Assembly: GCA_947630945.1 (NCBI GenBank)
Contig: CANRJN010000001.1
Location: 1 to 57,939 of the forward strand
Source of the DNA: an uncultured Bacilli bacterium
Lineage (GTDB): Bacteria > Bacillota_I > Bacilli_A > RF39 > UBA660
Direction: 5' to 3'
DNA length: 57,939 nt
Under the pieces are notes generated by a model. The model made no database searches, had not been told where the DNA came from, and saw only the letters and a program-made list of their open reading frames with translations. This document shows, one piece after another, positions 27,692 to 39,912 of this stretch. Within the stretch, counting starts at the first letter, position 1. The number at the start of each line of letters is the position of its first letter. The translations under genes and the position numbers were made by a program.

Positions 27692-29208
27692 TGTTAAACC
27701 TTTTTTAAAATGTCAGTATAAGATTTTTTAGAAATGTCAGTATTATTATATGATAGAATATACCTTTGGAAAGGAGGTATATTTTTAATATTATATGAAA
27801 AAAGATAAAGAAAAAGCTCTTAATCTTTTAAAACAAAAAGTAAATGGTGAAATTAAAATTACATATCGTGAAATAACTAAACAAACTGGTTATCAAGAAA
27901 GGCAATTAATAAGATTATCTCAACAAATAGAAAAAAAGGATATTTCTTCTTTATTAGTTCATGGTTTATTAGGTAAACCTTCAAATAACTCTGTTCCCAC
28001 CAAAGAATTAGATTATATTAAGAACTTTAAAAAAAAATATCCGAGTATTACTATATCACAATTTATGGATATTTACCACGAAGATGTTATTTGGAATAAA
28101 AATAAACAAGATGATGTAAAAAACTATAATCTTAAAGTAAGAAGTAAATCTTTCTTTCAACAATTATATAAAAAAGAAGGTTGGAAATCTCCCATAAAAC
28201 ATAAATGTTTTAAAGGTGAAAAACAGGTTCATTCTTTAAGAGATCCATCTCCTAGAAGAGGTATCCTTATTATGGTTGATGGTACTCCTCATGATTGGTT
28301 TGGTAATGGTAAAAAGTTTTCTCTACATATGGCGATTGATGATGCAACAGGTGAAATTCTTGCTGGCTGGTTTATGCCTACTGAATGTTTATTAGGTTAC
28401 TGTCATTTATTTAAAATTTTATTTGAAAAATATGGAATACCTATCTCTATTTATTCCGATAGAACTACTATTTTATGGGACCCAAAAGATGGCGAGCTAA
28501 CCGAAGTCGGAAGAATGTTAGATGAACTTGGCATTGAACTCATTTATGCTAATTCTCCAGAAGCAAAAGGTAAAATTGAAAAAATGAATTTTACAATTCA
28601 AAATAGATTATTAAATGATATTATTAGATTTAATATTAAAACTTATGATGAATTAAACAAATGGTTTAATAATTATTATATTGAATATATAAATAAAAAA
28701 TTTGCTTATAAGCCAAAAGAAGAGGAAACGGAATTTGTACCTTTAGATGGTCAAGATTTATCTAATATATTTTGTATCAAAGCCACAAGAACTATTTTAA
28801 ATGGTAATATGATATCTATTAATAATGAATATTATATTCCTATTGATGAATATGGAAATGATTATGTATTTTACAAAGGTACAAGTGTTGAAGTTTGGCA
28901 AGATGTATTCAATCCTAAATTAGTTAGAATATTTAAAAATAATAAAATTTATGGTACAAGACACATTCAAGGTCATAGAAGTGATCCTGTTAAACGAGAA
29001 CAAAAAAGAATTGATGATCAAAAGATGCTTGAACAAGTTTTAAGAGAAAGAGATGAAAGATTAAAAGCAAGGGCGAGACGAAGTTGAGTTTATCTTGACC
29101 CTTGCTTTTTAGATTTCATTAACTACAATTTTTTATTTCAAACAAAGCTTGCTTTTGTTTGTTACCTATCAATTAATTAAAAACTGACATTTCTAAAAAA
29201 TCTTAACA
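27692..29208 (+). mobile_element. Insertion sequence, IS1202/ISNCY-like, 1517 bp
   Basis: Imperfect 26-bp terminal inverted repeats: tgttaaaccttttttaaaatgtcagt at the left, and the reverse complement of the right end is tgttaagattttttagaaatgtcagt (21/26 match, starts TGT). One DDE transposase gene, flanked by identical 17-bp direct repeats. Confidence 0.8.
27795..29087 (+). CDS. DDE (rve/integrase-core type) transposase with N-terminal HTH
   Basis: 430 aa. Candidate catalytic residues lie in IMVDGTPHDWF, IYSDRTTILW and NSPEAKGKIEKMN. A GCAAGGG...CCCTTGC hairpin plus T-run spans the stop. Confidence 0.8.
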   Translation: MKKDKEKALNLLKQKVNGEIKITYREITKQTGYQERQLIRLSQQIEKKDISSLLVHGLLGKPSNNSVPTKELDYIKNFKKKYPSITISQFMDIYHEDVIWNKNKQDDVKNYNLKVRSKSFFQQLYKKEGWKSPIKHKCFKGEKQVHSLRDPSPRRGILIMVDGTPHDWFGNGKKFSLHMAIDDATGEILAGWFMPTECLLGYCHLFKILFEKYGIPISIYSDRTTILWDPKDGELTEVGRMLDELGIELIYANSPEAKGKIEKMNFTIQNRLLNDIIRFNIKTYDELNKWFNNYYIEYINKKFAYKPKEEETEFVPLDGQDLSNIFCIKATRTILNGNMISINNEYYIPIDEYGNDYVFYKGTSVEVWQDVFNPKLVRIFKNNKIYGTRHIQGHRSDPVKREQKRIDDQKMLEQVLRERDERLKARARRS

Positions 29209-29256: not shown

Positions 29257-30918
29257 TTACTTTATATATTTGTTTAAATTTTTTATTGCAATATTAAATT
29301 CACTATACATGGCAGGTCTTTTAACAAAATATTTTTCATTAATTTCTTTTAATATTGATTTAACAGTTTCATTAGAATTTTTCATTTGGATTATATGATT
29401 TACATTTCTTGCAAGATTACGATACTCTCTTCTATTATTTGCATACTCTGCATATTTTAAGCAAGAATATTTATAATTATATAATAATTTATTATTATAT
29501 TTTGGAAGTAAATATTTTTCATAATTTATAATATAATTCATACCATGACTATATACATTTAAATATAACTCATCATACATTTTTTCTTCTATAAATATTT
29601 CATTTAATTTCTTTTCACTTGACTCATCTTTTCTTAAATTTTCTATTATTTTATTTCTTTCTATATCCCAATCTTTATTATTATAAAGTTTCTTAATTTT
29701 AAGATATGTATCTATATCATATTTATCAAATTTATAAAAGATTTTATATAATATATCTTTATATTCGTTAATCTGATTATTTGCTAAATATATTTCAGAT
29801 AATTTATTTGCATAAGTTTTACTATCATAATTATTTTCATCTAATCTTTCTTCTAATTTTTTAATTGCATCAAATACTTTATTATTTTTTATTAATTCAT
29901 CAATATATTTTATAAAAACATCTGAATCATATGAATATTTTTCTAAAACTTGAATTATTTTTTCTTTTTCCTCCTTAAACTCATAAATTTTAGTTAAATA
30001 ATTAACATAATTTATTCTCTTATAAAAATATATTTTATCATTAGAACTATCAAGTTTTATTTCTAAAAATTTTTTTATTTCATCTAAATATAATTTATCA
30101 TAAATAAAATATTCTAATATAGGTTCTAAATCTACTCCATAATTATATAAATTATCTGTTTTTAATTCATCTATTACATAATCAAAAATCATTTTTAATA
30201 TATCACTATTTTTATTATCAATCTCATCTAAAATATCAAAAATTATTTCAATAGAATTTTCTGCTATAACTGATGTTGAACCACTCGAATCATCAATATT
30301 AGTATTAGGAATTGAATCTAAAATAGTCATAATAATTATTAATGCAGTTTTATAGTCCTCATTATCTACTAATTTACTTGCTTCATCAATAAATTCATTC
30401 ATAGTATGTTCATATTTAAATGTATTAGTATAATCAATATATCCATCTCTATTACAACATCTATCAATAGCATTATAAATTTTATTTTCATATTCTTCTT
30501 TTGATAATTTTGGAAAATATTTACTAAATTCTATTCTAAATCTATTTAATAATTCACTATCATTTTTTAAATTTTCATAAATAAATTTTTTTATTTCTTT
30601 TTCAGGTACCACATTAACAATATTTTCTAAATTATAATCGTTATTTTCTTTATCTATTCCTTTATCATTTAAATAATATAATAATGCAGCCATATGTTTA
30701 CAATATTCACCAGATTCAAAATAAGGGCAACTACATTCTCCATCAATAAAAATATTATCTATAATTTCAAGTTCAACTTTATAATCATAATTTCCAATTA
30801 CTATTGCACTAACAATATTATCATTTACTACTATATTACTAACTCTATTTTCACAATAATATTCATATCCTCTTTTCAAAATATAATCATTAAAATCATT
30901 TTCAAACTTTATTTTCAT
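29257..30918 (-). CDS. SWIM zinc-finger protein with long alpha-helical repeat C-terminal region
   Basis: 553 aa. CSCPYFESGEYCKHMAALLYYL fits the CxCx(n)CxH SWIM motif. The rest is helical and low in complexity. Confidence 0.7.
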   Translation of the reverse strand: MKIKFENDFNDYILKRGYEYYCENRVSNIVVNDNIVSAIVIGNYDYKVELEIIDNIFIDGECSCPYFESGEYCKHMAALLYYLNDKGIDKENNDYNLENIVNVVPEKEIKKFIYENLKNDSELLNRFRIEFSKYFPKLSKEEYENKIYNAIDRCCNRDGYIDYTNTFKYEHTMNEFIDEASKLVDNEDYKTALIIIMTILDSIPNTNIDDSSGSTSVIAENSIEIIFDILDEIDNKNSDILKMIFDYVIDELKTDNLYNYGVDLEPILEYFIYDKLYLDEIKKFLEIKLDSSNDKIYFYKRINYVNYLTKIYEFKEEKEKIIQVLEKYSYDSDVFIKYIDELIKNNKVFDAIKKLEERLDENNYDSKTYANKLSEIYLANNQINEYKDILYKIFYKFDKYDIDTYLKIKKLYNNKDWDIERNKIIENLRKDESSEKKLNEIFIEEKMYDELYLNVYSHGMNYIINYEKYLLPKYNNKLLYNYKYSCLKYAEYANNRREYRNLARNVNHIIQMKNSNETVKSILKEINEKYFVKRPAMYSEFNIAIKNLNKYIK

Positions 30919-31062
30919 TTACTACTCCTAAATATTTATATAAATATTGTATCATATATAATAGTATTAATAAATTATATTTGATTTTATTAATTTTTTT
31001 GATTTATATTAATTATATAGTATAATGATAGTAGAAATTAACAAATAATGTAGGAGAAGTAT

Positions 31063-31557
31063 ATGATAGATATTAAAGATTTAAAACATTTAGCAAAACA
31101 AAAAGAAAATGAAAATTATAGATTTAGACAATTTTTAAAAATACATGCTGATGAAGAAGAATTAGATAAACAGTTTAAAGAATTGCATAATAAATATTTT
31201 AAAATATATGATTGTAAAAAATGTAGAAATTGTTGTAAAGAAATTGGAATTAGTATGGATGAAAATGAATTAAATAAAATATGCGAATATTTAAAATTAG
31301 ATAAGAATAAATATATTCAAGAACATTTAAATGAAAAATATGGAGAATATACATTTAAAGAAAAAAGATGTAAATTTTTAGATGAAAATAATAATTGTAA
31401 AGTTAAAGAATGTTTACCTAAAAGTTGTAAAGAATATCCATATACTGATAAAGAAGAAAGATTATTTAGTTTATATTCTGTTATTTCAAATGCAAGTGTT
31501 TGTCCTGTTGTATATGAAATATTAGAAGAACTTAAAAAAATATATAATTTTAGGTAA
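31063..31557 (+). CDS. YkgJ-family (UPF0153) cysteine-cluster protein
   Basis: 164 aa. CKKCRNCC plus CKFLDENNNCKVKECLPKSCKEYP cysteine clusters. GGAG Shine-Dalgarno upstream. Confidence 0.7.
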   Translation: MIDIKDLKHLAKQKENENYRFRQFLKIHADEEELDKQFKELHNKYFKIYDCKKCRNCCKEIGISMDENELNKICEYLKLDKNKYIQEHLNEKYGEYTFKEKRCKFLDENNNCKVKECLPKSCKEYPYTDKEERLFSLYSVISNASVCPVVYEILEELKKIYNFR

Positions 31558-31784
31558 TATAATTGTTTTTATAGTGGTTATTTTCATTATTAGTAGTAAA
31601 CAATATTTTTTATAAAATGGTTATTGTGCATTTAGCAAACTTTTTGCTGTGCAAATAACATCTCGTCCTCTAAAGTAATTCATAAATACTTTGACTATAT
31701 TAGTCTAATTAAGTTCTACTAATATTTAGAAAAGTTTATGTTAGTTTAGAAAAATTTCTAATTTTTGAGAATTAAAGTATAACG

Positions 31785-31839
31785 ATTTTAAAGTAAATTA
31801 CCACATACAATCAACTATTGTGGCAATTTACTTTAAAAT
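31785..31839. promoter_or_regulatory. 21-bp inverted repeat (hairpin or operator) immediately upstream of the abiEi remnant
   Basis: attttaaagtaaattaccaca (31785-31805) versus tgtggcaatttactttaaaat (31819-31839). 20/21 complementary, 13-nt loop. Confidence 0.4.
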
Positions 31840-31850
31840 TATATCAATAG

Positions 31851-32015
31851 GTGATTGAATTGATATTACTTTACAAAGAACTTATCAAACAATATAAAAG
31901 TGATTATGAAATTAAAAAGTTAATTAAAATTGGAAAGATATTTAAGATAGAAAAAGGAATTTATAGTGATCAAAAAAATGTAAATTATTTAAAAGTACTT
32001 ACTAAAAAATATCCT
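31851..32015 (+). pseudogene. Truncated abiEi-like (type IV TA antitoxin, N-terminal wHTH) gene fragment
   Basis: The first ~55 codons (…YEIKKLIKIGKIFKIEKGIYSD…LTKKYPN) resemble the AbiEi_4 N-terminal domain. The similarity stops at 32016, where fic-derived sequence begins. The rest of ORF 31851..32204 is read-through of unrelated DNA. Confidence 0.55.
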
Positions 32016-32104
32016 AACCTTTTTAATTATGTAATTGATATTCCTTTATTCCTCTTATATAAAAATCTTTATTTCTATCTTCTATATAAAATGGCTTTAT
32101 ATCA
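32016..32104 (-). pseudogene. 89-bp fic-derived fragment, a direct repeat of 34396-34484
   Basis: About 84/89 nt identical to the intact fic gene. The minus strand translates to DIKPFYIEDRNKDFYIRGIKEYQLHN*, versus Fic residues DIMPFYIEDRNKDFYIRGIKEYQLHNEKG. Confidence 0.85.
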
Positions 32105-32190
32105 ATGGTTTTTATTCTATATAAAAAGAACTGTCCATAATGAACAATTCTTATTTTTATTACATAATTATTTACATAATACAAAGTTAT

Positions 32191-32796
32191 TTATAATTTA
32201 CTAAAATCATCAATTGCATCTAAAATTTTATATATACTTGTATGTGGATTTGATTCTATTAATTCTTCACCACTACTAACAGCTCTTTTCTCTAATAGTT
32301 TTGCAGTTGTTCTAGCTTTATCAGTATTACATTTTATAAATTTATACATATCTATAGTTTCTGTATATGTACCATTTTCTTTTACAATTTCTTTTTTAAC
32401 TTTTTGACTACTATCAAATTTCAATTTATTATCTCTATAGTGTAACAAATACCATATTTCAAATGTTGGAGCCGATGTTATTATTTCTATATTATTTTTT
32501 AAACACTTCTCTTCTATTTCTTTTATCTCATTTATTCTTCTATCATCTAAATCTGTATCTAATACTAAAAATATTCTTACATTATCTTCTGATTTAATAT
32601 CTTCGTTTTGAATATATTTTAATAAATTATCTAACATACCTTTTGGATCTGTAGCATTTCCTGTTGAAAATTGTATTCTTAAATCTCTTGTGCAAAAATG
32701 TCTAAAATAATAATATTCTGATGATTTCATACCACCTTCAGAACATATTATAATTAGTGGCCTTCTTTGCTGAATTTTTATTTGTCTTCTAGCCAC
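32191..32796 (-). CDS. RloB-like Toprim-type protein (AbiLii-like), cassette 1
   Basis: 201 aa. LIIICSEGGMKSSEYYYF, LVLDTDLDD and ITSAPTFEIWYLLHY match the RloB pattern (EG..E..YF, DxD, SxPxFExWxLLH). Overlaps the ATPase gene by 19 nt. Confidence 0.75.
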   Translation of the reverse strand: MARRQIKIQQRRPLIIICSEGGMKSSEYYYFRHFCTRDLRIQFSTGNATDPKGMLDNLLKYIQNEDIKSEDNVRIFLVLDTDLDDRRINEIKEIEEKCLKNNIEIITSAPTFEIWYLLHYRDNKLKFDSSQKVKKEIVKENGTYTETIDMYKFIKCNTDKARTTAKLLEKRAVSSGEELIESNPHTSIYKILDAIDDFSKL

Positions 32797-34046
32797 AAAT
32801 CAATGTCTCTTATAAATGGTATTGCTCCATATCTACCATTTATATAACCTTTCTGAATATTTTCATCTTTTCTTACAGGAAATGAATCAAGTGGATACAA
32901 ATCAGAAACACCTGTTTTTGAATTTTTTTCAGTAAACCAAATTTGATCTCTTCTTAATAAATTAAGATTTAATAGATTTGTTGCATGTGTCATAAATATT
33001 AACTGACTATTAGCTTTATTAATATCTTTATTATTAAATAGTTTTATAAGGAACTCTACTAATACTGGATGCATGCTTTTTTCTAATTCATCAACAACAA
33101 TTATTTTAGTACTTTCAAATGATCTTTTTAAAAATGGTGCTAAAGCAAATAATACATGAGTACCTGAAGATTCATCATTAAAATCTAATTTATAATGATG
33201 TGAATTATTATTTTCATCAACGACTTCATGTTCTAATTCAATTTTTATATCATGCATTTTAAATGTACCAATTGCTTTTAAAAAAGATGGCAGATTCATA
33301 TTTACATCCATACTATCTACTTCTTTTTCTTCATAGTCAACATGCATATCTTTAATTAATATATCTGCTTCTTTCAATAATTTCAAAGTAAATTCTTTTA
33401 AACTACTATTTTCATTACAATATTCTTTTAAATCACGAGATGAAATATTATTAAAAGAATCACATGTTTCTATAGAATTACTAAGCCATAAATATGCATC
33501 TTTTGTTTTTTCATAATTCCAATTTGTTGCTGTTGATAAAAACAATTTATTTTCTGTATTTTTTAATTTCAATGAATCTAATTTATTTTTATCACTATTA
33601 AACTCATATATATTTGTTTTAGTTCTTGTAAAGATATTTGTTGGCTTTTGAGTATAATATGCATCTAATATTTCATCATAAATTTTATTTATATCTGCAC
33701 TAAAATAATATCTATACTTTATGCCATTAGTAATAAAGAAAAACTCAAATTCACTAGGTTTATTTTTTGTTGTTTCATCAAATAAAAATGGTTTCAAAAA
33801 ATTCCATTTTCCCCCTACTGGAATCAAATTAGAATTTCTTATCATAAGTATTGCACACGAAAAAGCCTTAAATAAGTTAGATTTACCAGATGCATTTGCT
33901 CCATATATAGCAGCTGTTTTTAATAAATCTAACCCATTTTTAGCAATTATATTATCTAAATTCTCATCTCCATTGCCTTTTTCCATTGATAAAGTTACTT
34001 TATTTTTAAAAGATAAAAAATTTTTAACACTAAATTCAATAAGCAT
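32778..34046 (-). CDS. ABC/AAA_21-type ATPase (AbiLi/RloA-like), cassette 1
   Basis: 422 aa. Walker A IYGANASGKSNLFK, Walker B IIVVDELEKSMHP, C-terminal RRDQIWFTEKN...GRYGAIPFI. A paralog of 52199..53440. Confidence 0.8.
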   Translation of the reverse strand: MLIEFSVKNFLSFKNKVTLSMEKGNGDENLDNIIAKNGLDLLKTAAIYGANASGKSNLFKAFSCAILMIRNSNLIPVGGKWNFLKPFLFDETTKNKPSEFEFFFITNGIKYRYYFSADINKIYDEILDAYYTQKPTNIFTRTKTNIYEFNSDKNKLDSLKLKNTENKLFLSTATNWNYEKTKDAYLWLSNSIETCDSFNNISSRDLKEYCNENSSLKEFTLKLLKEADILIKDMHVDYEEKEVDSMDVNMNLPSFLKAIGTFKMHDIKIELEHEVVDENNNSHHYKLDFNDESSGTHVLFALAPFLKRSFESTKIIVVDELEKSMHPVLVEFLIKLFNNKDINKANSQLIFMTHATNLLNLNLLRRDQIWFTEKNSKTGVSDLYPLDSFPVRKDENIQKGYINGRYGAIPFIRDIDLWLEDK

Positions 34047-34262
34047 AAACTATCCCCTCCAATATTATTATACTATTATTTATGAAAAAATATAGTTATT
34101 TTTTACTTTTTTGTATTTTTTTCACAAATTCATAAATAATATTATATATTTTAAATAATATTATTGTAATTGTCAATATAAATATTTGAATATCTATAGC
34201 AAAAGTAATTTTTTTGCTATAATTATATGTAATGTGATTCCAACATATTTAGTATATTGGAG

Positions 34263-34289
34263 AAAAAAAGAGCCTTTGCTCTTTTTTTC
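34263..34289 (-). terminator. Weak rho-independent terminator after fic
   Basis: A7-agagc-cttt-gctct-T7, a 5-bp stem. On the minus strand a T7 follows the hairpin, 30 nt past the fic stop. Confidence 0.4.
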
Positions 34290-34318
34290 GTTACTTCAAA
34301 AATTTATACCTATATATC

Positions 34319-35059
34319 TTATTTCTCATCTTCTAAAAAGTAATTAACTAATTTTTCATAATTATCTTGACTATTTAAACAAGTATCAATTAAATAACCT
34401 TTTTCATTATGTAATTGATATTCTTTTATTCCTCTTATATAAAAATCTTTATTTCTATCTTCAATATAGAATGGCATTATATCATTATTTAAACATTCTC
34501 TAAACATTATCATTCTTCCTACTCTACCATTTCCATCTTGAAAAGGATGAATTCGCTCAAATCTAACATGAAATTCTATAATATCTTCAAAACTCTTTTT
34601 AGATATTTTATTATACCAATTTAATAATTCTTTCATATCTTTTGAAACATTTTTTGGAAGAGATGTTGTAATATCCCCTACAAAATTTTTTTTCTTTTTA
34701 TATTCTCCTACATTAAACCATTCTTTTTCACTATCAGTAAGTGTTCCATCTTTTAATATAAAATGAAATTTTTTAATCATATCTTCTGATAATTTTTCAT
34801 CAATAGTATCTAACATATATTTAAATAAAGTAAAATGATTTTTAGTTTCTGTCGCGTCTTTTAAAACAATAACTTTATTACTACTTGTAAGAATAGTTCC
34901 TGTATCATATATACTAGATGTTTCATCTGGAGTTATAGTTGAACCTTCAATGTGATTTGAATTATATGCAAAATCTATCTGTGTTTTATGATAAAGATTT
35001 CCAGATAAATTCATATTTTTTTGTTCAATCAATGCTTTTTTTAATTTACTTATTTCCAT
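34319..35059 (-). CDS. fic: Fic-domain protein (AMPylase-type), class II with N-terminal inhibitory motif
   Basis: 246 aa. The HPFQDGNGRVGR Fic motif is intact. S34-N-H-I-E38-G39 fits the (S/T)xxxE(G/N) inhibitory helix motif. Confidence 0.9.
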   Translation of the reverse strand: MEISKLKKALIEQKNMNLSGNLYHKTQIDFAYNSNHIEGSTITPDETSSIYDTGTILTSSNKVIVLKDATETKNHFTLFKYMLDTIDEKLSEDMIKKFHFILKDGTLTDSEKEWFNVGEYKKKKNFVGDITTSLPKNVSKDMKELLNWYNKISKKSFEDIIEFHVRFERIHPFQDGNGRVGRMIMFRECLNNDIMPFYIEDRNKDFYIRGIKEYQLHNEKGYLIDTCLNSQDNYEKLVNYFLEDEK

Positions 35060-35095: not shown

Positions 35096-35172
35096 TGGCG
35101 TCCTAGGGCAGAGTCGAACTGCCGACTTACGACTTAGGAGGTCGTTACTCTATCCAACTGAGTTACTAGGAC
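35096..35172 (-). tRNA. tRNA-Arg (anticodon CCT), CCA encoded
   Basis: The minus strand folds by hand into a cloverleaf: GTCCTAG-TA-ACTC-AGTTGGATA-GAGT-A-ACGAC-CTCCTAA-GTCGT-AAGTC-GGCAG-TTCGACT-CTGCC-CTAGGAC-GCCA. That is a 7-bp acceptor stem, 5-bp anticodon stem, loop CT-CCT-AA, T-loop TTCGACT, 77 nt in total. Confidence 0.9.
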
Positions 35173-38003: not shown

Positions 38004-38807
38004 TTAATTTGTATTTCTAATAGTTATAATATTTAAATCCAATAATATAATTGATATTAATGATAACAAATTATAATAATTTTTATTATTATAAATATAT
38101 TCTTGTTTTTCAAAAATTTTCAAAGATGTAATTGAAAAATCATCTAAATTATATTCATTAATGCCTAAATTTATTAATGCTTTATTCATCATAGCAGTAG
38201 CTTTTAAAAGTTTATTCTTATCTATATCTTGTATTTTATAATTCTTATCTTTAATATAATTTTTTAAATTTTTTTCTTTTAAAAATAGAGTCTTATTATC
38301 AAAATTAGAAATAATATATGATTCTATGCATGGATAACTTAATAAAAGTAGTCCATTCATTTCTTCATTCTTATTTTCAAGTGAATTTCCAAATTTACTT
38401 AATAATTCTTTTGTAACTCCAACAGGGTTTGACTTATTATCTCTATCCCAAATGAAATACACATGAATATTTTTAATATCTATTCCATACTCAACATATA
38501 AGTATTTAAATAATTCATTAAGATAATCTTTATCTTTTTTTATAGATGATAAATTAGAATTTTTTGAGTTTATTACAATTATACTTGAATTTTCATTTCC
38601 TTTCATCACAAATTTATCATAACTTTTAAATATTTTTTGATTTCGACTTTTTTCAATATATTTATAATGTAAAATATTTACAAATATATGTTTTAATAAA
38701 TCAAACTCAAATTGCCCCTCTACAATTATTAAAACTGAACCAATATTTTTCTTTATATTAATCTTTAAAGATTTTATTGTATTTTGGCATTCCATCAAAT
38801 ACTCCAC
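38004..38807 (-). CDS. Toprim-like effector protein (DUF4435/DUF4276/RloB-like; AriB- or AbiLii-like), cassette 2
   Basis: 267 aa. VLIIVEGQFEFDLLKHIF, YFIWDRDNKSN and LLLSYPCIESYIISNF mirror the E / DxD / S-x-P-x-(F/I)-E pattern of the RloB proteins in this window. Overlaps the ATPase gene by 38-50 nt. Confidence 0.6.
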   Translation of the reverse strand: MEYLMECQNTIKSLKINIKKNIGSVLIIVEGQFEFDLLKHIFVNILHYKYIEKSRNQKIFKSYDKFVMKGNENSSIIVINSKNSNLSSIKKDKDYLNELFKYLYVEYGIDIKNIHVYFIWDRDNKSNPVGVTKELLSKFGNSLENKNEEMNGLLLLSYPCIESYIISNFDNKTLFLKEKNLKNYIKDKNYKIQDIDKNKLLKATAMMNKALINLGINEYNLDDFSITSLKIFEKQEYIYNNKNYYNLLSLISIILLDLNIITIRNTN

Positions 38808-39912
38808 TTAAATACATTTTTTCAGTATTTTGTGATTCTCTTGGCATTTCATCAGAAAATCTTTTTAATACTGAACCTTTTTTAGAATTAAAATAAACTG
38901 AATATATTTGATCCGGTCTTAATAAAGTATTATTTAATAAATTTGTTGAATGTGAAGCAAAAAACAATTGAGAATTTTTTGAATAATGAAAGAAATATTT
39001 AACTATACATTCTTCCAATTCATTATGAAATCCACTACTAAATTCATCTATAATTAACATACATTCATTTTTTATAGCATGTAAAAATGATGGTAATAAT
39101 TCCATTAATGTTATATTTCCAGTAGATTCAAATATTTCAGGAATATATATATTTGTACCTTGTTTATTAAAAGAAATAAATTTATTATTATCACTTGATT
39201 TTACATAAAATTCATCCTCTTTATTAGGAGTTTCTGTTCCATATTCAATTTTTTGCTTATAATTAATTTTATTTAAAAATTGATTTATTTCATCTACTGT
39301 ATTGTTATCTAAATATTCATGTATTAATAAATCATTTCCAGTATAAGTAACTATATCTCTAAAATAACAATTTATAAAAACTGATTTTTTCAAATATTCA
39401 AACCATTTAATTAAAGTTTTATTTTCATAAAAATTAGTATCAAAATATATTCTACGTAAAAACAATAATTTATTTGAAATTTCATTTACTATTTTTTCTT
39501 CATTTAAAGTAAATTTACCAGTATTTCCTAATCTTTCTAATATAATTTCATTATCAAATATTAATTTTTCTGAAATTATTTCTTTAAGACTTAACTCAAT
39601 TGAATATATAATCTCCTTATCTTCTTCAATAAAAGTATATTCAAGTTTGTAATTATCTTTTTTAGTATAAAAACAACTATTAACCATATAATCAATATCA
39701 CTATTTCCAAATAATAAATCTAACAACAATTTAATACTTTCTAATATTTTTGTTTTTCCAGAAGCATTCTCTCCAACAAATAAACAGCCTTTAAGTATTC
39801 TGCTATTTCCAACATTTTCATTTTCTAGAAATTTATAATTTGTAGCTGAAAAATCTATTTCCGTAGGTTGCATAAATGTAGTGTAATTATCTAATTTTAT
39901 TTTTTTTAACAT
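38758..39912 (-). CDS. ABC/AAA_21-type ATPase (AriA/AbiLi-like), cassette 2
   Basis: 384 aa. Walker A FVGENASGKTK, Walker B MLIIDEFSSGFHN, C-terminal LLRPDQIYSVYFN...YLSGVFDGMPK, parallel to the other two ATPases. Confidence 0.75.
   Translation of the reverse strand: MLKKIKLDNYTTFMQPTEIDFSATNYKFLENENVGNSRILKGCLFVGENASGKTKILESIKLLLDLLFGNSDIDYMVNSCFYTKKDNYKLEYTFIEEDKEIIYSIELSLKEIISEKLIFDNEIILERLGNTGKFTLNEEKIVNEISNKLLFLRRIYFDTNFYENKTLIKWFEYLKKSVFINCYFRDIVTYTGNDLLIHEYLDNNTVDEINQFLNKINYKQKIEYGTETPNKEDEFYVKSSDNNKFISFNKQGTNIYIPEIFESTGNITLMELLPSFLHAIKNECMLIIDEFSSGFHNELEECIVKYFFHYSKNSQLFFASHSTNLLNNTLLRPDQIYSVYFNSKKGSVLKRFSDEMPRESQNTEKMYLSGVFDGMPKYNKIFKD

What the first reader, a model, noticed from the sequence alone, without database searches (positions are those of the whole stretch)
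31851..34484. ATPase+RloB cassette bracketed by 89-bp direct repeats derived from fic, beside a truncated abiEi: gene-cassette exchange scar
Positions 32016-32104 and 34396-34484 are direct repeats (~84/89 identical).

The right copy is an internal part of the intact fic gene (residues ~192-221). The left copy is an orphan fragment that still translates as DIKPFYIEDRNKDFYIRGIKEYQLHN-stop. It is fused head-on to the first ~55 codons of an abiEi-like gene.

Everything between the repeats is the ATPase/RloB pair plus its 272-bp upstream region.

This pattern suggests the two-gene cassette arrived, or can be excised, by recombination between fic-like sequences. It would have destroyed an earlier fic paralog and an abiE module. 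The region would then be a hotspot where defence/TA modules replace one another. ORF 31851..32204 in the track is a chimera of these remnants.
Basis: seen in the sequence. Interest (0 to 1): 0.65.

Follow-up and report, generated by a model that had tools for sequence, protein, structure and literature searches.

The report
Fic gene relic beside AbiL module
The 90-bp repeat is real: its left copy is the worn-down remnant of a second fic gene in a fast-changing anti-phage gene island next to a tRNA-Arg gene of an uncultured rabbit-gut bacterium, which is an ordinary kind of genomic scar and not evidence that the ATPase/RloB pair moves by recombination between fic sequences.

Summary
Observation confirmed. 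Positions 32015-32104 and 34395-34484 are 85/90 identical. The right copy is codons 192-222 of an intact Fic gene. The left copy is an orphan fic fragment with a premature stop, joined to the first ~52-55 codons of an abiEi gene.

Interpretation partly supported.
- The region next to tRNA-Arg(CCT) is a defence hot spot. Four related genomes carry four different contents there: AbiL; an OLD nuclease; two unknown genes plus two fic copies; AbiD.
- The left copy matches the fic allele of a sister genome (L087) better than its own neighbour, so it is not a copy of that neighbour. In L087 an intact fic sits at the equivalent position.
- The ATPase/RloB pair is an AbiL system and a self-contained 2.0-kb module (34186-32190, own promoter). 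It recurs with the same ends in two unrelated contexts. Its ends lie 209 and 86 nt from the repeats.
- Both edges of the relic are illegitimate joints with at most 3 nt of microhomology.
- The one cassette-less relative (L086) is not the product of repeat-by-repeat deletion.
- fic copies do recombine with each other: the two copies in L087 and L180 evolve in concert.

Verdict: ordinary erosion in a defence island. Interest is low to moderate.

The parts
35096..35172 (-). tRNA-Arg(CCT). It is the conserved anchor of the variable island. The fic start codon lies 36 nt downstream of it.
   Evidence: ARAGORN. The same tRNA follows the same CdsA-RseP-p123-HD gene block in relatives L002-L010 and L043.
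34319..35059 (-). Intact fic gene (246 aa), a class II-type Fic of the PADLOC candidate defence family PDC-S04. It has the active-site motif HPFQDGNGRVGR at residue 171 and the SNHIEG inhibitory-helix-type motif at residue 34.
   Evidence: It is 97% nt identical to the L086 fic and 91% to the L087 fic copies.
34395..34484 (-). Right copy of the repeat, equal to fic nt 576-665 (codons 192-222).
34191..34293 (-). Conserved hairpin-rich segment ('termSeg'), including the terminator-like hairpin AAAAAAAGAGCAAAGGCTCTTTTTTT. In L002 it lies about 110 nt after tRNA-Arg. In L087 it lies just upstream of fic1.
   Evidence: blastn gives 89-91% identity to L002 4410-4517 and 78-88% to L087 6159-6316. Sequences were read.
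32190..34186 (-). AbiL module. It comprises its own promoter-like site (34176..34148, TTGACA-17-TAAAAT), abiLi (AAA_21 ATPase, 34046..32778) and abiLii (RloB/TOPRIM-like, 32796..32191), with the two ORFs overlapping by 19 nt.
   Evidence: PADLOC AbiLi 3.5e-92 and AbiLii 9.7e-15. Pfam AAA_21 and RloB. The same nucleotide boundaries at 84-87% identity occur in L169/L170 and L171-L176. Promoter scan.
32126..32152 (-). Intrinsic-terminator-like hairpin directly after abiLii. It is a shortened version of a hairpin found in L087 (7565-7612), in run X8 (organism A) and in run X5.
32015..32110 (-). fic relic, containing the left copy of the repeat (32015-32104). It is an internal fragment equal to codons ~192-221. 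It has 3 private substitutions, one of which makes an in-frame TAA stop, and it shares the L087-type states at alignment columns 573, 591 and 597.
   Evidence: The best match is L087 fic2 at 86/90, against 85/90 for the neighbouring fic.
31696..32017 (+). abiE relic: the promoter/operator inverted repeat (about 31785-31840) and the first ~52-55 codons of abiEi (GTG at 31851 or TTG at 31860, up to about 32015). It is cut on both sides.
   Evidence: PADLOC AbiEi positions 2-53/180. Alignment with L082-L085. In runs X1-X3, X8, X11 and X12, contigs that match the window from 31696 rightwards carry a different sequence to its left; in X2-X7, X11 and X12, contigs run on past 32017 as intact abiEi.
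29257..31557 (.). CxxCxxCC gene (31063-31557, +) and 553-aa SWIM gene (30918..29257, -; PADLOC PDC-S62). This block is shared with L086 and L087/L180 and forms the left-hand neighbour of the scar.
   Evidence: (93.8-95.7% nt identity).
27795..29087 (+). ISNCY-family transposase gene. It occupies the place where L087 and L180 carry their second fic copy, after SWIM.
   Evidence: NCBIfam NF033594 4.5e-73 (just below the curated cutoff: 246.5 vs 250 bits). Synteny.

Best explanation
The island between tRNA-Arg(CCT) and the polysaccharide genes is a defence-gene hot spot. Self-contained modules are gained and lost there, and dead modules are whittled down by deletions. In this lineage fic occupies more than one position in the island.

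The left repeat is what remains of an inner fic copy, equivalent to fic1 of sister genome L087. That inner copy lost its two ends in two separate illegitimate events.
1. Its first ~190 codons were replaced when the AbiL module, with a terminator, came to lie upstream of it.
2. Its last 25 codons were removed by a deletion that ran from abiEi codon ~55 through the rest of a convergent abiE module into fic codon 221.

The 90-bp direct repeat is therefore a by-product of two fic copies having existed. It is not the site through which AbiL entered.

Shown: the identities of the genes, the module boundaries, the allele series, the allele affinity of the relic, and the lack of homology at its edges.

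Inferred: the order of events, and that each joint arose by illegitimate recombination.
For: 1. Allele series at one locus.
- L002: tRNA, termSeg, AbiD-type gene.
- L086: tRNA, OLD nuclease, fic, CxxC, SWIM.
- L087/L180: tRNA, p220, p159, termSeg, fic1, abiE relics, CxxC, SWIM, fic2.
- Window: tRNA, fic, termSeg, AbiL, fic', abiEi', CxxC, SWIM, IS.

2. In L087 and L180 an intact fic1 lies between termSeg and the abiE-relic/CxxC block, which is the position of fic' in the window.

3. fic' shares the L087-type bases at three sites where the window and L086 fic differ. It has three private changes, one of them a stop codon. It is an old pseudogene of another allele, not a copy of its neighbour.

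4. The AbiL module ends at 34186 and 32190 in three unrelated contexts, so the repeats are not its ends.

5. The joints lack homology. The abiEi'|fic' joint has at most a TAA overlap, and the fic' 5' edge has no homology.

6. The same style of erosion is seen in L087. There an abiEi-abiEii-PrimPol module is reduced to promoter + 72 nt of abiEii + 98 nt of the PrimPol 3' end.

7. The two joints have different distributions. A fic fragment with the same 5' break (within 2 nt) is seen in X5 and X7 from another study; in X5 one contig links it, through 55 extra nt, to the terminator and abiLii. The abiEi'|fic' joint is seen only in window-type runs. This fits two separate events, the AbiL-side one being older.
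Against: - No genome with AbiL next to a full-length inner fic was found, so the intermediate is inferred.
- The abiE relics of L087 and the window point in opposite directions. The two islands are therefore not simply collinear, and abiE may have entered twice.
- The terminator element after abiLii sits on the other side of fic in L087. This hints at rearrangements I could not reconstruct.
- All comparison data are short metagenome contigs or MAGs.
Confidence: 0.68

Rival explanations
1. One reading: AbiL was captured, and can be lost, by homologous recombination between fic-like sequences, so fic acts as the recombination handle of a cassette-exchange site.
For: - fic copies in this island do recombine. 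L087 fic1 and fic2 differ at 20 sites, none of them in nt 194-602. L087 and L180 differ at the same three sites in both copies, which indicates concerted evolution.
- fic brackets cargo (CxxC-SWIM) in L087 and L180.
- fic is very conserved across many genomes, with more than 120 clusters at 84-98% aa identity, so it could offer portable homology.
- A 38-nt perfect block in the window repeat could support rare RecA-mediated deletion.
Against: - The module ends do not coincide with the repeats.
- The relic edges are non-homologous joints.
- The relic belongs to a different fic allele from its neighbour.
- L086 is not the predicted deletion product.
- Of the 83 fetched fic loci (L086-L168), two close fic copies were found only in L087 and on the contig that gave L105 and L110; L180, fetched later, is the same allele as L087. 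None had orphan fragments.
- No joint between the repeats appears in contigs.
Confidence: 0.15
2. A local tandem duplication: the segment carrying fic was duplicated in place, and the downstream copy then decayed to 90 bp.
For: Direct orientation and 94% identity of the two copies. Tandem fic copies exist in L087.
Against: The fragment is closer to L087 fic2 (86/90) and shares L087-type states at three diagnostic sites that the adjacent fic and L086 lack. Nothing else flanking the two copies is duplicated.
Confidence: 0.1
3. An artefact: a metagenome assembler joined contigs wrongly at a shared fic sequence, or the repeat is a dispersed non-coding repeat.
For: fic-like sequence is abundant in these samples, with raised depth over the repeat. 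Several contigs of the same strain stop near this region.
Against: Logan contigs from runs X1, X3 and X4 cross both edges of the fragment (31962-32074, 32053-32437, 32062-32470) at 97% identity or more. The fragment diverges from fic on both sides, which a repeat-induced misjoin would not produce. Every match of the 90 bp lies in a fic ORF.
Confidence: 0.03

Closest known systems
Core defence hot spots, meaning variable anti-phage islands between conserved genes (e.g. cDHS1/cDHS2 of Pseudomonas aeruginosa, PMC10250203)
   Same: A conserved anchor (the CdsA-RseP-p123-HD-tRNA-Arg block) sits next to a stretch whose defence content differs in every close relative: AbiL, OLD, AbiD, Fic/PDC-S04, SWIM/PDC-S62 and abiE relics.
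   Different: The island is much smaller (about 1.5-8 kb) and lies in an uncultured 21%-GC rabbit-gut member of the Bacilli. Only the tRNA side is a stable flank. No integrase is present. It was seen in a handful of MAGs and contigs, not in hundreds of genomes.
Erosion of chromosomal toxin-antitoxin modules (PMC13617665)
   Same: The abiE type IV TA module is lost by deletion, leaving only the promoter and the 5' end of the antitoxin gene. Many differently truncated copies exist in related genomes.
   Different: Here the deletion also cut into a neighbouring fic gene, producing a hybrid ORF. That study describes toxin pseudogenisation and whole-module loss in Photorhabdus.
AbiL (AbiLi/AbiLii) of Lactococcus, with RloAB and PARIS as the same ATPase + TOPRIM/OLD class (PMC13064643)
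   Same: A two-gene operon of an AAA_21/ABC ATPase followed by an RloB/TOPRIM-like protein, with strong PADLOC AbiLi and AbiLii hits.
   Different: No phenotype is known for this homologue. It is chromosomal, in a defence island, and not on a lactococcal plasmid.
Deletion or gene conversion between direct gene repeats (RecA-dependent recombination between paralogues)
   Same: Two fic sequences lie in direct orientation. In L087 and L180 the two full copies show a 409-nt conversion tract.
   Different: In the window only 90 bp at 94% identity remains, and no recombinant was observed. The repeat is a consequence of the island's history and not the demonstrated cause of cassette movement.

Membership tests
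AbiL abortive-infection system | First gene encodes an ABC/AAA_21-type ATPase matching AbiLi | tested here: met
   PADLOC AbiLi 3.5e-92 and Pfam AAA_21 5e-30.
AbiL abortive-infection system | Second, adjacent gene encodes an RloB/TOPRIM-like protein matching AbiLii, in one operon | tested here: met
   PADLOC AbiLii 9.7e-15 and Pfam RloB 1e-22. The ORFs overlap by 19 nt.
AbiL abortive-infection system | Protects against phage infection | not testable with these tools
   The host is uncultured and no phenotype data exist.
AbiE type IV toxin-antitoxin | AbiEi N-terminal DNA-binding part preceded by an inverted-repeat operator | tested here: met
   PADLOC AbiEi PDLC02238 1.7e-15, model positions 2-53/180. 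The inverted repeat at 31785-31840 is conserved in L082-L085.
AbiE type IV toxin-antitoxin | AbiEi C-terminal antitoxin domain and an adjacent AbiEii nucleotidyltransferase | tested here: not met
   The ORF leaves abiEi after codon ~55 and runs into antisense fic. There is no AbiEii in the island. Both parts are present in L084. The window therefore holds a relic and not a working AbiE.
Fic/PDC-S04 (right copy's gene) | Fic motif HxFx(D/E)GNGRxxR and a full-length match to the family model | tested here: met
   HPFQDGNGRVGR at residue 171. PDC-S04 1.2e-103 over residues 3-243.
Fic/PDC-S04 (left copy) | Contains the catalytic motif and an intact reading frame | tested here: not met
   Only codons ~192-221 remain, downstream of the motif, and the fragment ends in TAA.
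Cassette flanked by its own recombination repeats (integron-like, or Campbell-type insertion through fic homology) | Repeats coincide with the ends of the mobile unit, and an empty site equals one repeat copy | tested here: not met
   The module ends at 34186 and 32190 lie 209 nt and 86 nt from the repeats. The L086 empty site keeps the full fic 3' end and lacks abiEi'.
Cassette flanked by its own recombination repeats (integron-like, or Campbell-type insertion through fic homology) | A site-specific recombinase encoded nearby | tested here: not met
   There is no integrase between 29088 and 35096. The only recombinase-like gene nearby is an ISNCY transposase at 27795-29087.
Defence hot spot | Same conserved flank but different defence genes in close relatives | tested here: met
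   Four alleles are found next to the same HD-tRNA-Arg block.

The most novel reading that the evidence does not exclude
In this lineage the compact, highly conserved fic gene may act as portable homology inside the island. It is found at several positions with only about 10-40 nt of recognisable 5' flank (its ribosome-binding site) and about 15 nt of 3' flank. Copies at different positions could recombine and convert one another, as they demonstrably do in L087 and L180. This would delete, duplicate or swap the defence cargo lying between them. The window's 90-bp relic would then be a disabled former handle.
Probability: 0.15. Interest if true: 0.5.

Novelty: new member of a known kind. Interest (0 to 1): 0.3.

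Why it matters
The locus gives a clear, small example of how anti-phage islands turn over in an uncultured, very AT-rich gut bacterium. Whole modules appear with sharp, function-delimited ends, and dead modules are cut down to internal fragments by illegitimate deletions.

For annotation:
- ORF 31851..32204 and ORF 32184..32023 should not be called genes.
- The ATPase/RloB pair should be named AbiL.
- The Fic gene belongs to the PDC-S04 candidate family.

The finding does not open a new mechanism. The only lead beyond the ordinary is the concerted evolution of duplicated fic genes that bracket defence cargo in the sister genome.

Tried and rejected
- Exact-protein look-ups of the window's Fic and CxxCxxCC proteins returned only contigs identical to the window (L001, L177-L179). 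The AbiLi look-up returned nothing. None gave alternative alleles.
- A viral-contig scan with Fic found no relative, so there is no sign that fic rides on a phage.
- The 86 nt between abiLii and the relic has no match in any fetched locus apart from a partial resemblance of its hairpin to L087 7565-7612. I could not establish its origin.
- I considered that weak similarity continues 5' of the relic (GQFFLYRIKTIDI against GRMIMFRECLNNDI). The alignment is about 55% identical in AT-rich sequence, and BLAST stops at 32110, so I do not claim it.
- I considered that L086 arose by fic-by-fic deletion from a window-like ancestor. Its fic carries window-type bases through the repeat region and an intact 3' end, so there is no support.
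- The apparent 43-nt duplication flanking the OLD insertion in L086 shrinks on inspection to about 24 nt of AT-rich similarity.
- Fic is not generally next to a tRNA. Only 1 of 84 fic copies in the 83 fetched fic loci (L086-L168) has a tRNA within 600 nt.
- Logan contigs at 85% likeness gave many spurious joints in this low-complexity DNA. At 97% there were none.
Full report
THE OBSERVATION

The repeat finder reports one outstanding direct repeat in the region: 32015-32104 and 34395-34484, 90 nt, 85/90 identical. The next best 'repeat' is 53 nt at 74%, which is background for DNA of 21% G+C. A 57-nt core occurs exactly twice in the window, against none in 100 shuffles. The longest perfect block is 38 nt.

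The right copy is nt 576-665 (codons 192-222) of an intact 246-aa ORF, 35059..34319 on the minus strand. This ORF is a Fic protein: Pfam Fic 4e-18 and PADLOC PDC-S04 1.2e-103. It carries the motif HPFQDGNGRVGR and an N-terminal SNHIEG motif.

The left copy reads on the minus strand as ...DIKPFYIEDRNKDFYIRGIKEYQLHN-stop.

On the plus strand, the ORF starting at 31851 begins like AbiEi. Pfam is only marginal (E=0.09). PADLOC's AbiEi model PDLC02238 matches at 1.7e-15 over model positions 2-53 of 180. In locus L084 the rest of that model (positions 43-180, 4e-51) is found just before an AbiEii gene (2.8e-95).

The factual part of the finding is therefore correct. Logan contigs from rabbit-gut runs X1, X3 and X4 cross both edges of the fragment at 97% identity or more, so it is not an assembly chimera.

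THE GENES

The ATPase (34046..32778) and RloB (32796..32191) are an AbiL pair: PADLOC AbiLi 3.5e-92 and AbiLii 9.7e-15, Pfam AAA_21 and RloB. AbiL belongs with PARIS and RloAB in the class of ABC-ATPase plus TOPRIM/OLD-nuclease defence systems (PMC13064643).

AbiE is a type IV toxin-antitoxin system. The N-terminal domain of its antitoxin binds inverted repeats in its own promoter (PMC13064643). Such an inverted repeat lies at 31785-31840.

THE ORGANISM AND THE LOCUS

The window comes from an uncultured member of the Bacilli from rabbit gut. The block CdsA-RseP-p123-HD-tRNA-Arg(CCT) is conserved in relatives whose RseP is 53-92% identical. What follows the tRNA differs in each of four close relatives.

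- L002: a conserved hairpin-rich segment ('termSeg', equal to window 34191-34293), then an Abi_2/AbiD gene, then polysaccharide genes.
- L086 (96-97% nt identical to the window): tRNA, a 600-aa OLD-family nuclease, fic, 52 nt, then the CxxCxxCC and SWIM genes. The 2.65 kb between window 34311 and 31655 is absent.
- L087, and L180 from another sample (90-94% identical): tRNA, two unknown genes, termSeg, fic1, abiE relics, CxxCxxCC, SWIM, fic2.
- The window: tRNA, fic, termSeg, AbiL, fic relic, abiEi relic, CxxCxxCC, SWIM, an ISNCY transposase.

This is a defence hot spot of the kind described elsewhere (PMC10250203).

THE CASSETTE AND ITS ENDS

Close AbiLi homologues (83-89% aa) were traced to two other contexts. 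One is after an OLD/UvrD pair (L169, L170). The other is between an HTH/M78-peptidase-Fic pair and ksgA (L171-L176).

In all of them, nucleotide similarity to the window (84-87%) starts at window 34186 and ends at 32190-32194, that is, at the abiLii stop codon. The exceptions are two contigs that end inside the module. The upstream end lies about 10 nt before the best promoter-like site of the region (TTGACA-17-TAAAAT, 34176..34148). A terminator-like hairpin follows abiLii at 32152..32126.

AbiL is thus a self-contained 2.0-kb module. Its ends lie 209 nt and 86 nt away from the two repeat copies.

WHERE THE LEFT COPY COMES FROM

All 79 matches of the fragment among the fetched loci fall inside fic ORFs at the homologous position. 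It is fic sequence, not a dispersed repeat.

Its best match is L087 fic2 (86/90), not its own neighbour (85/90). At three sites where the window and L086 fic differ from the L087 fic, the fragment has the L087 state. It also has three private changes, one of which turns GAA into TAA. It is therefore an old pseudogene of a different fic allele.

In L087 and L180 an intact fic1 lies exactly between termSeg and the abiE-relic/CxxCxxCC block. This is the position the fragment has in the window.

THE JOINTS

At the abiEi side the plus strand reads ...AAAAAATATCCTAA|CCTTTTTAATTATG. Intact abiEi continues TGCAATATTT, and intact fic reads AAATAACCTTTTTC. The overlap is at most TAA.

At the other side similarity to fic stops at 32104-32110, next to the terminator, with no homology. 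Both edges are illegitimate joints.

The two joints have different distributions. In runs X5 and X7 from another study, contigs carry a fic fragment with the same 5' break (within 2 nt), followed by the same non-fic sequence. In X5, one 460-nt contig links that fragment, through 55 extra nt, to a full version of the terminator and to abiLii. The abiEi|fic joint was seen only in window-type runs. This fits two separate events, with the AbiL-side one being older and the window having lost a further 55 nt.

EROSION IS THE LOCAL STYLE

In L087 an abiEi-abiEii-PrimPol module like that of L084 is reduced to its promoter, 72 nt of abiEii and 98 nt of the PrimPol 3' end.

A search with the 56-aa AbiEi fragment returned 18 proteins, none of them full length. 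Several of these have unrelated tails. They lie at unrelated sites: between rplI and dnaB in L082, after recG in L083, and split by an IS in L084. This matches published pictures of TA erosion (PMC13617665).

fic copies do interact. L087 fic1 and fic2 differ at 20 sites, none between nt 194 and 602, although 36 of the 60 window-versus-L087 differences fall in that stretch (P about 1e-8). L087 and L180 differ at the same three sites in both copies. That is gene conversion.

Against the idea:
- Of the 83 fic loci fetched up to that point (L086-L168), two close fic copies were found only in L087 and on the contig that gave L105 and L110. L180, fetched later, is the same allele as L087. None had an orphan fragment.
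- L086 is not the product of a crossover in the repeat.
- No contig joins the repeats.

Recombination across the remaining 90 bp is possible in principle, but it has not been shown. It would leave a truncated fic.

VERDICT

The scar records the decay of an inner fic copy and of an abiE module around an independently bounded AbiL module, in a tRNA-linked defence hot spot. This is a new instance of a known kind of locus.

Noticed in passing
window 38004-39912 (- strand): A second AbiL-like pair: a 384-aa AAA_21 ATPase (PADLOC AbiLi 1e-45) and a 267-aa AbiLii-like protein (5.6e-5). It sits between p236 and CdsA. Relatives L003-L008 have little or nothing there, and L087 has a PDC-S01 (AAA_14/DUF4143) gene instead. 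This is a second small defence hot spot 3 kb from the first.
   Followed up: partly
L087 6326-7057 and 10001-10732; L180, same coordinates: Two intact fic genes in direct orientation bracket abiE relics + CxxCxxCC + SWIM. A 409-nt central tract is identical within each genome but differs between the two genomes at three sites, which indicates concerted evolution by gene conversion.
   Followed up: yes
window 34191-34293; L002 4410-4517; L087 6159-6316: A conserved ~100-nt segment with three hairpins (a terminator-like one, CCAATAT..ATGTTGG, and TATAGCAAAA..TTTTGCTATA). It marks a boundary between modules in all three genomes but lies at different places relative to fic. It may be the native terminator downstream of tRNA-Arg, or a small RNA or recombination site.
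   Followed up: partly
window 32111-32160; L087 7552-7611: The terminator hairpin after abiLii resembles (about 40/46 nt) a ~60-nt insert in the CxxCxxCC 3' flank of L087. That insert is bounded by ATAAAAAA direct repeats and is absent from the window and L086 at that place. It may be a small mobile terminator-like element. Fuller versions follow abiLii in runs X5 and X8.
   Followed up: partly
P0001-P0018; L082 10001-10180; L083 5204-5479; L084 901-1071: The same abiE promoter and abiEi 5' end (69-87% aa identity) turns up at unrelated chromosomal sites in related gut bacteria. Examples are between rplI and dnaB, after recG, and split by an IS3-type element. None of the 18 proteins is full length. 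Some of this reflects contig ends, but several have unrelated tails.
   Followed up: partly
L171 8411-11856; L172-L175: In another rabbit-gut MAG the AbiL module lies directly after a different Fic-domain gene (448 aa, M78 peptidase + Fic, preceded by an HTH gene). AbiL is thus found next to a Fic gene in two independent contexts. This could be coincidence within defence islands or a functional link.
   Followed up: no
window 34319-35059; This small Fic is unusually conserved and widespread. More than 8000 database clusters score E<1e-20, and over 120 are 84-98% aa identical, from rabbit, human, squirrel and other gut metagenomes. Its recognisable flanks are only about 10-40 nt (the ribosome-binding site) on the 5' side and about 15 nt on the 3' side. 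In the window it starts 36 nt after the tRNA and has no promoter-like site of its own in between.
   Followed up: partly
L086 431-2531: An OLD-family nuclease cassette (600 aa) is inserted between tRNA-Arg and fic. It is flanked by an AT-rich direct repeat of about 24 nt (ATTTTATTAA..TATTTAAAAT).
   Followed up: partly
window 27795-29087 (+): An ISNCY-family transposase (NCBIfam 4.5e-73; 246.5 bits, just under the curated cutoff of 250) lies between SWIM and the sugar-transferase genes, where L087 carries fic2. High depth and indel variants at 29078-29136 in several runs suggest a multi-copy element.
   Followed up: no
window 31860: The start codon used by abiEi homologues (ATG) is TTG in the window's relic, and the longer ORF starts at GTG 31851. 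This is consistent with decay of the relic.
   Followed up: no
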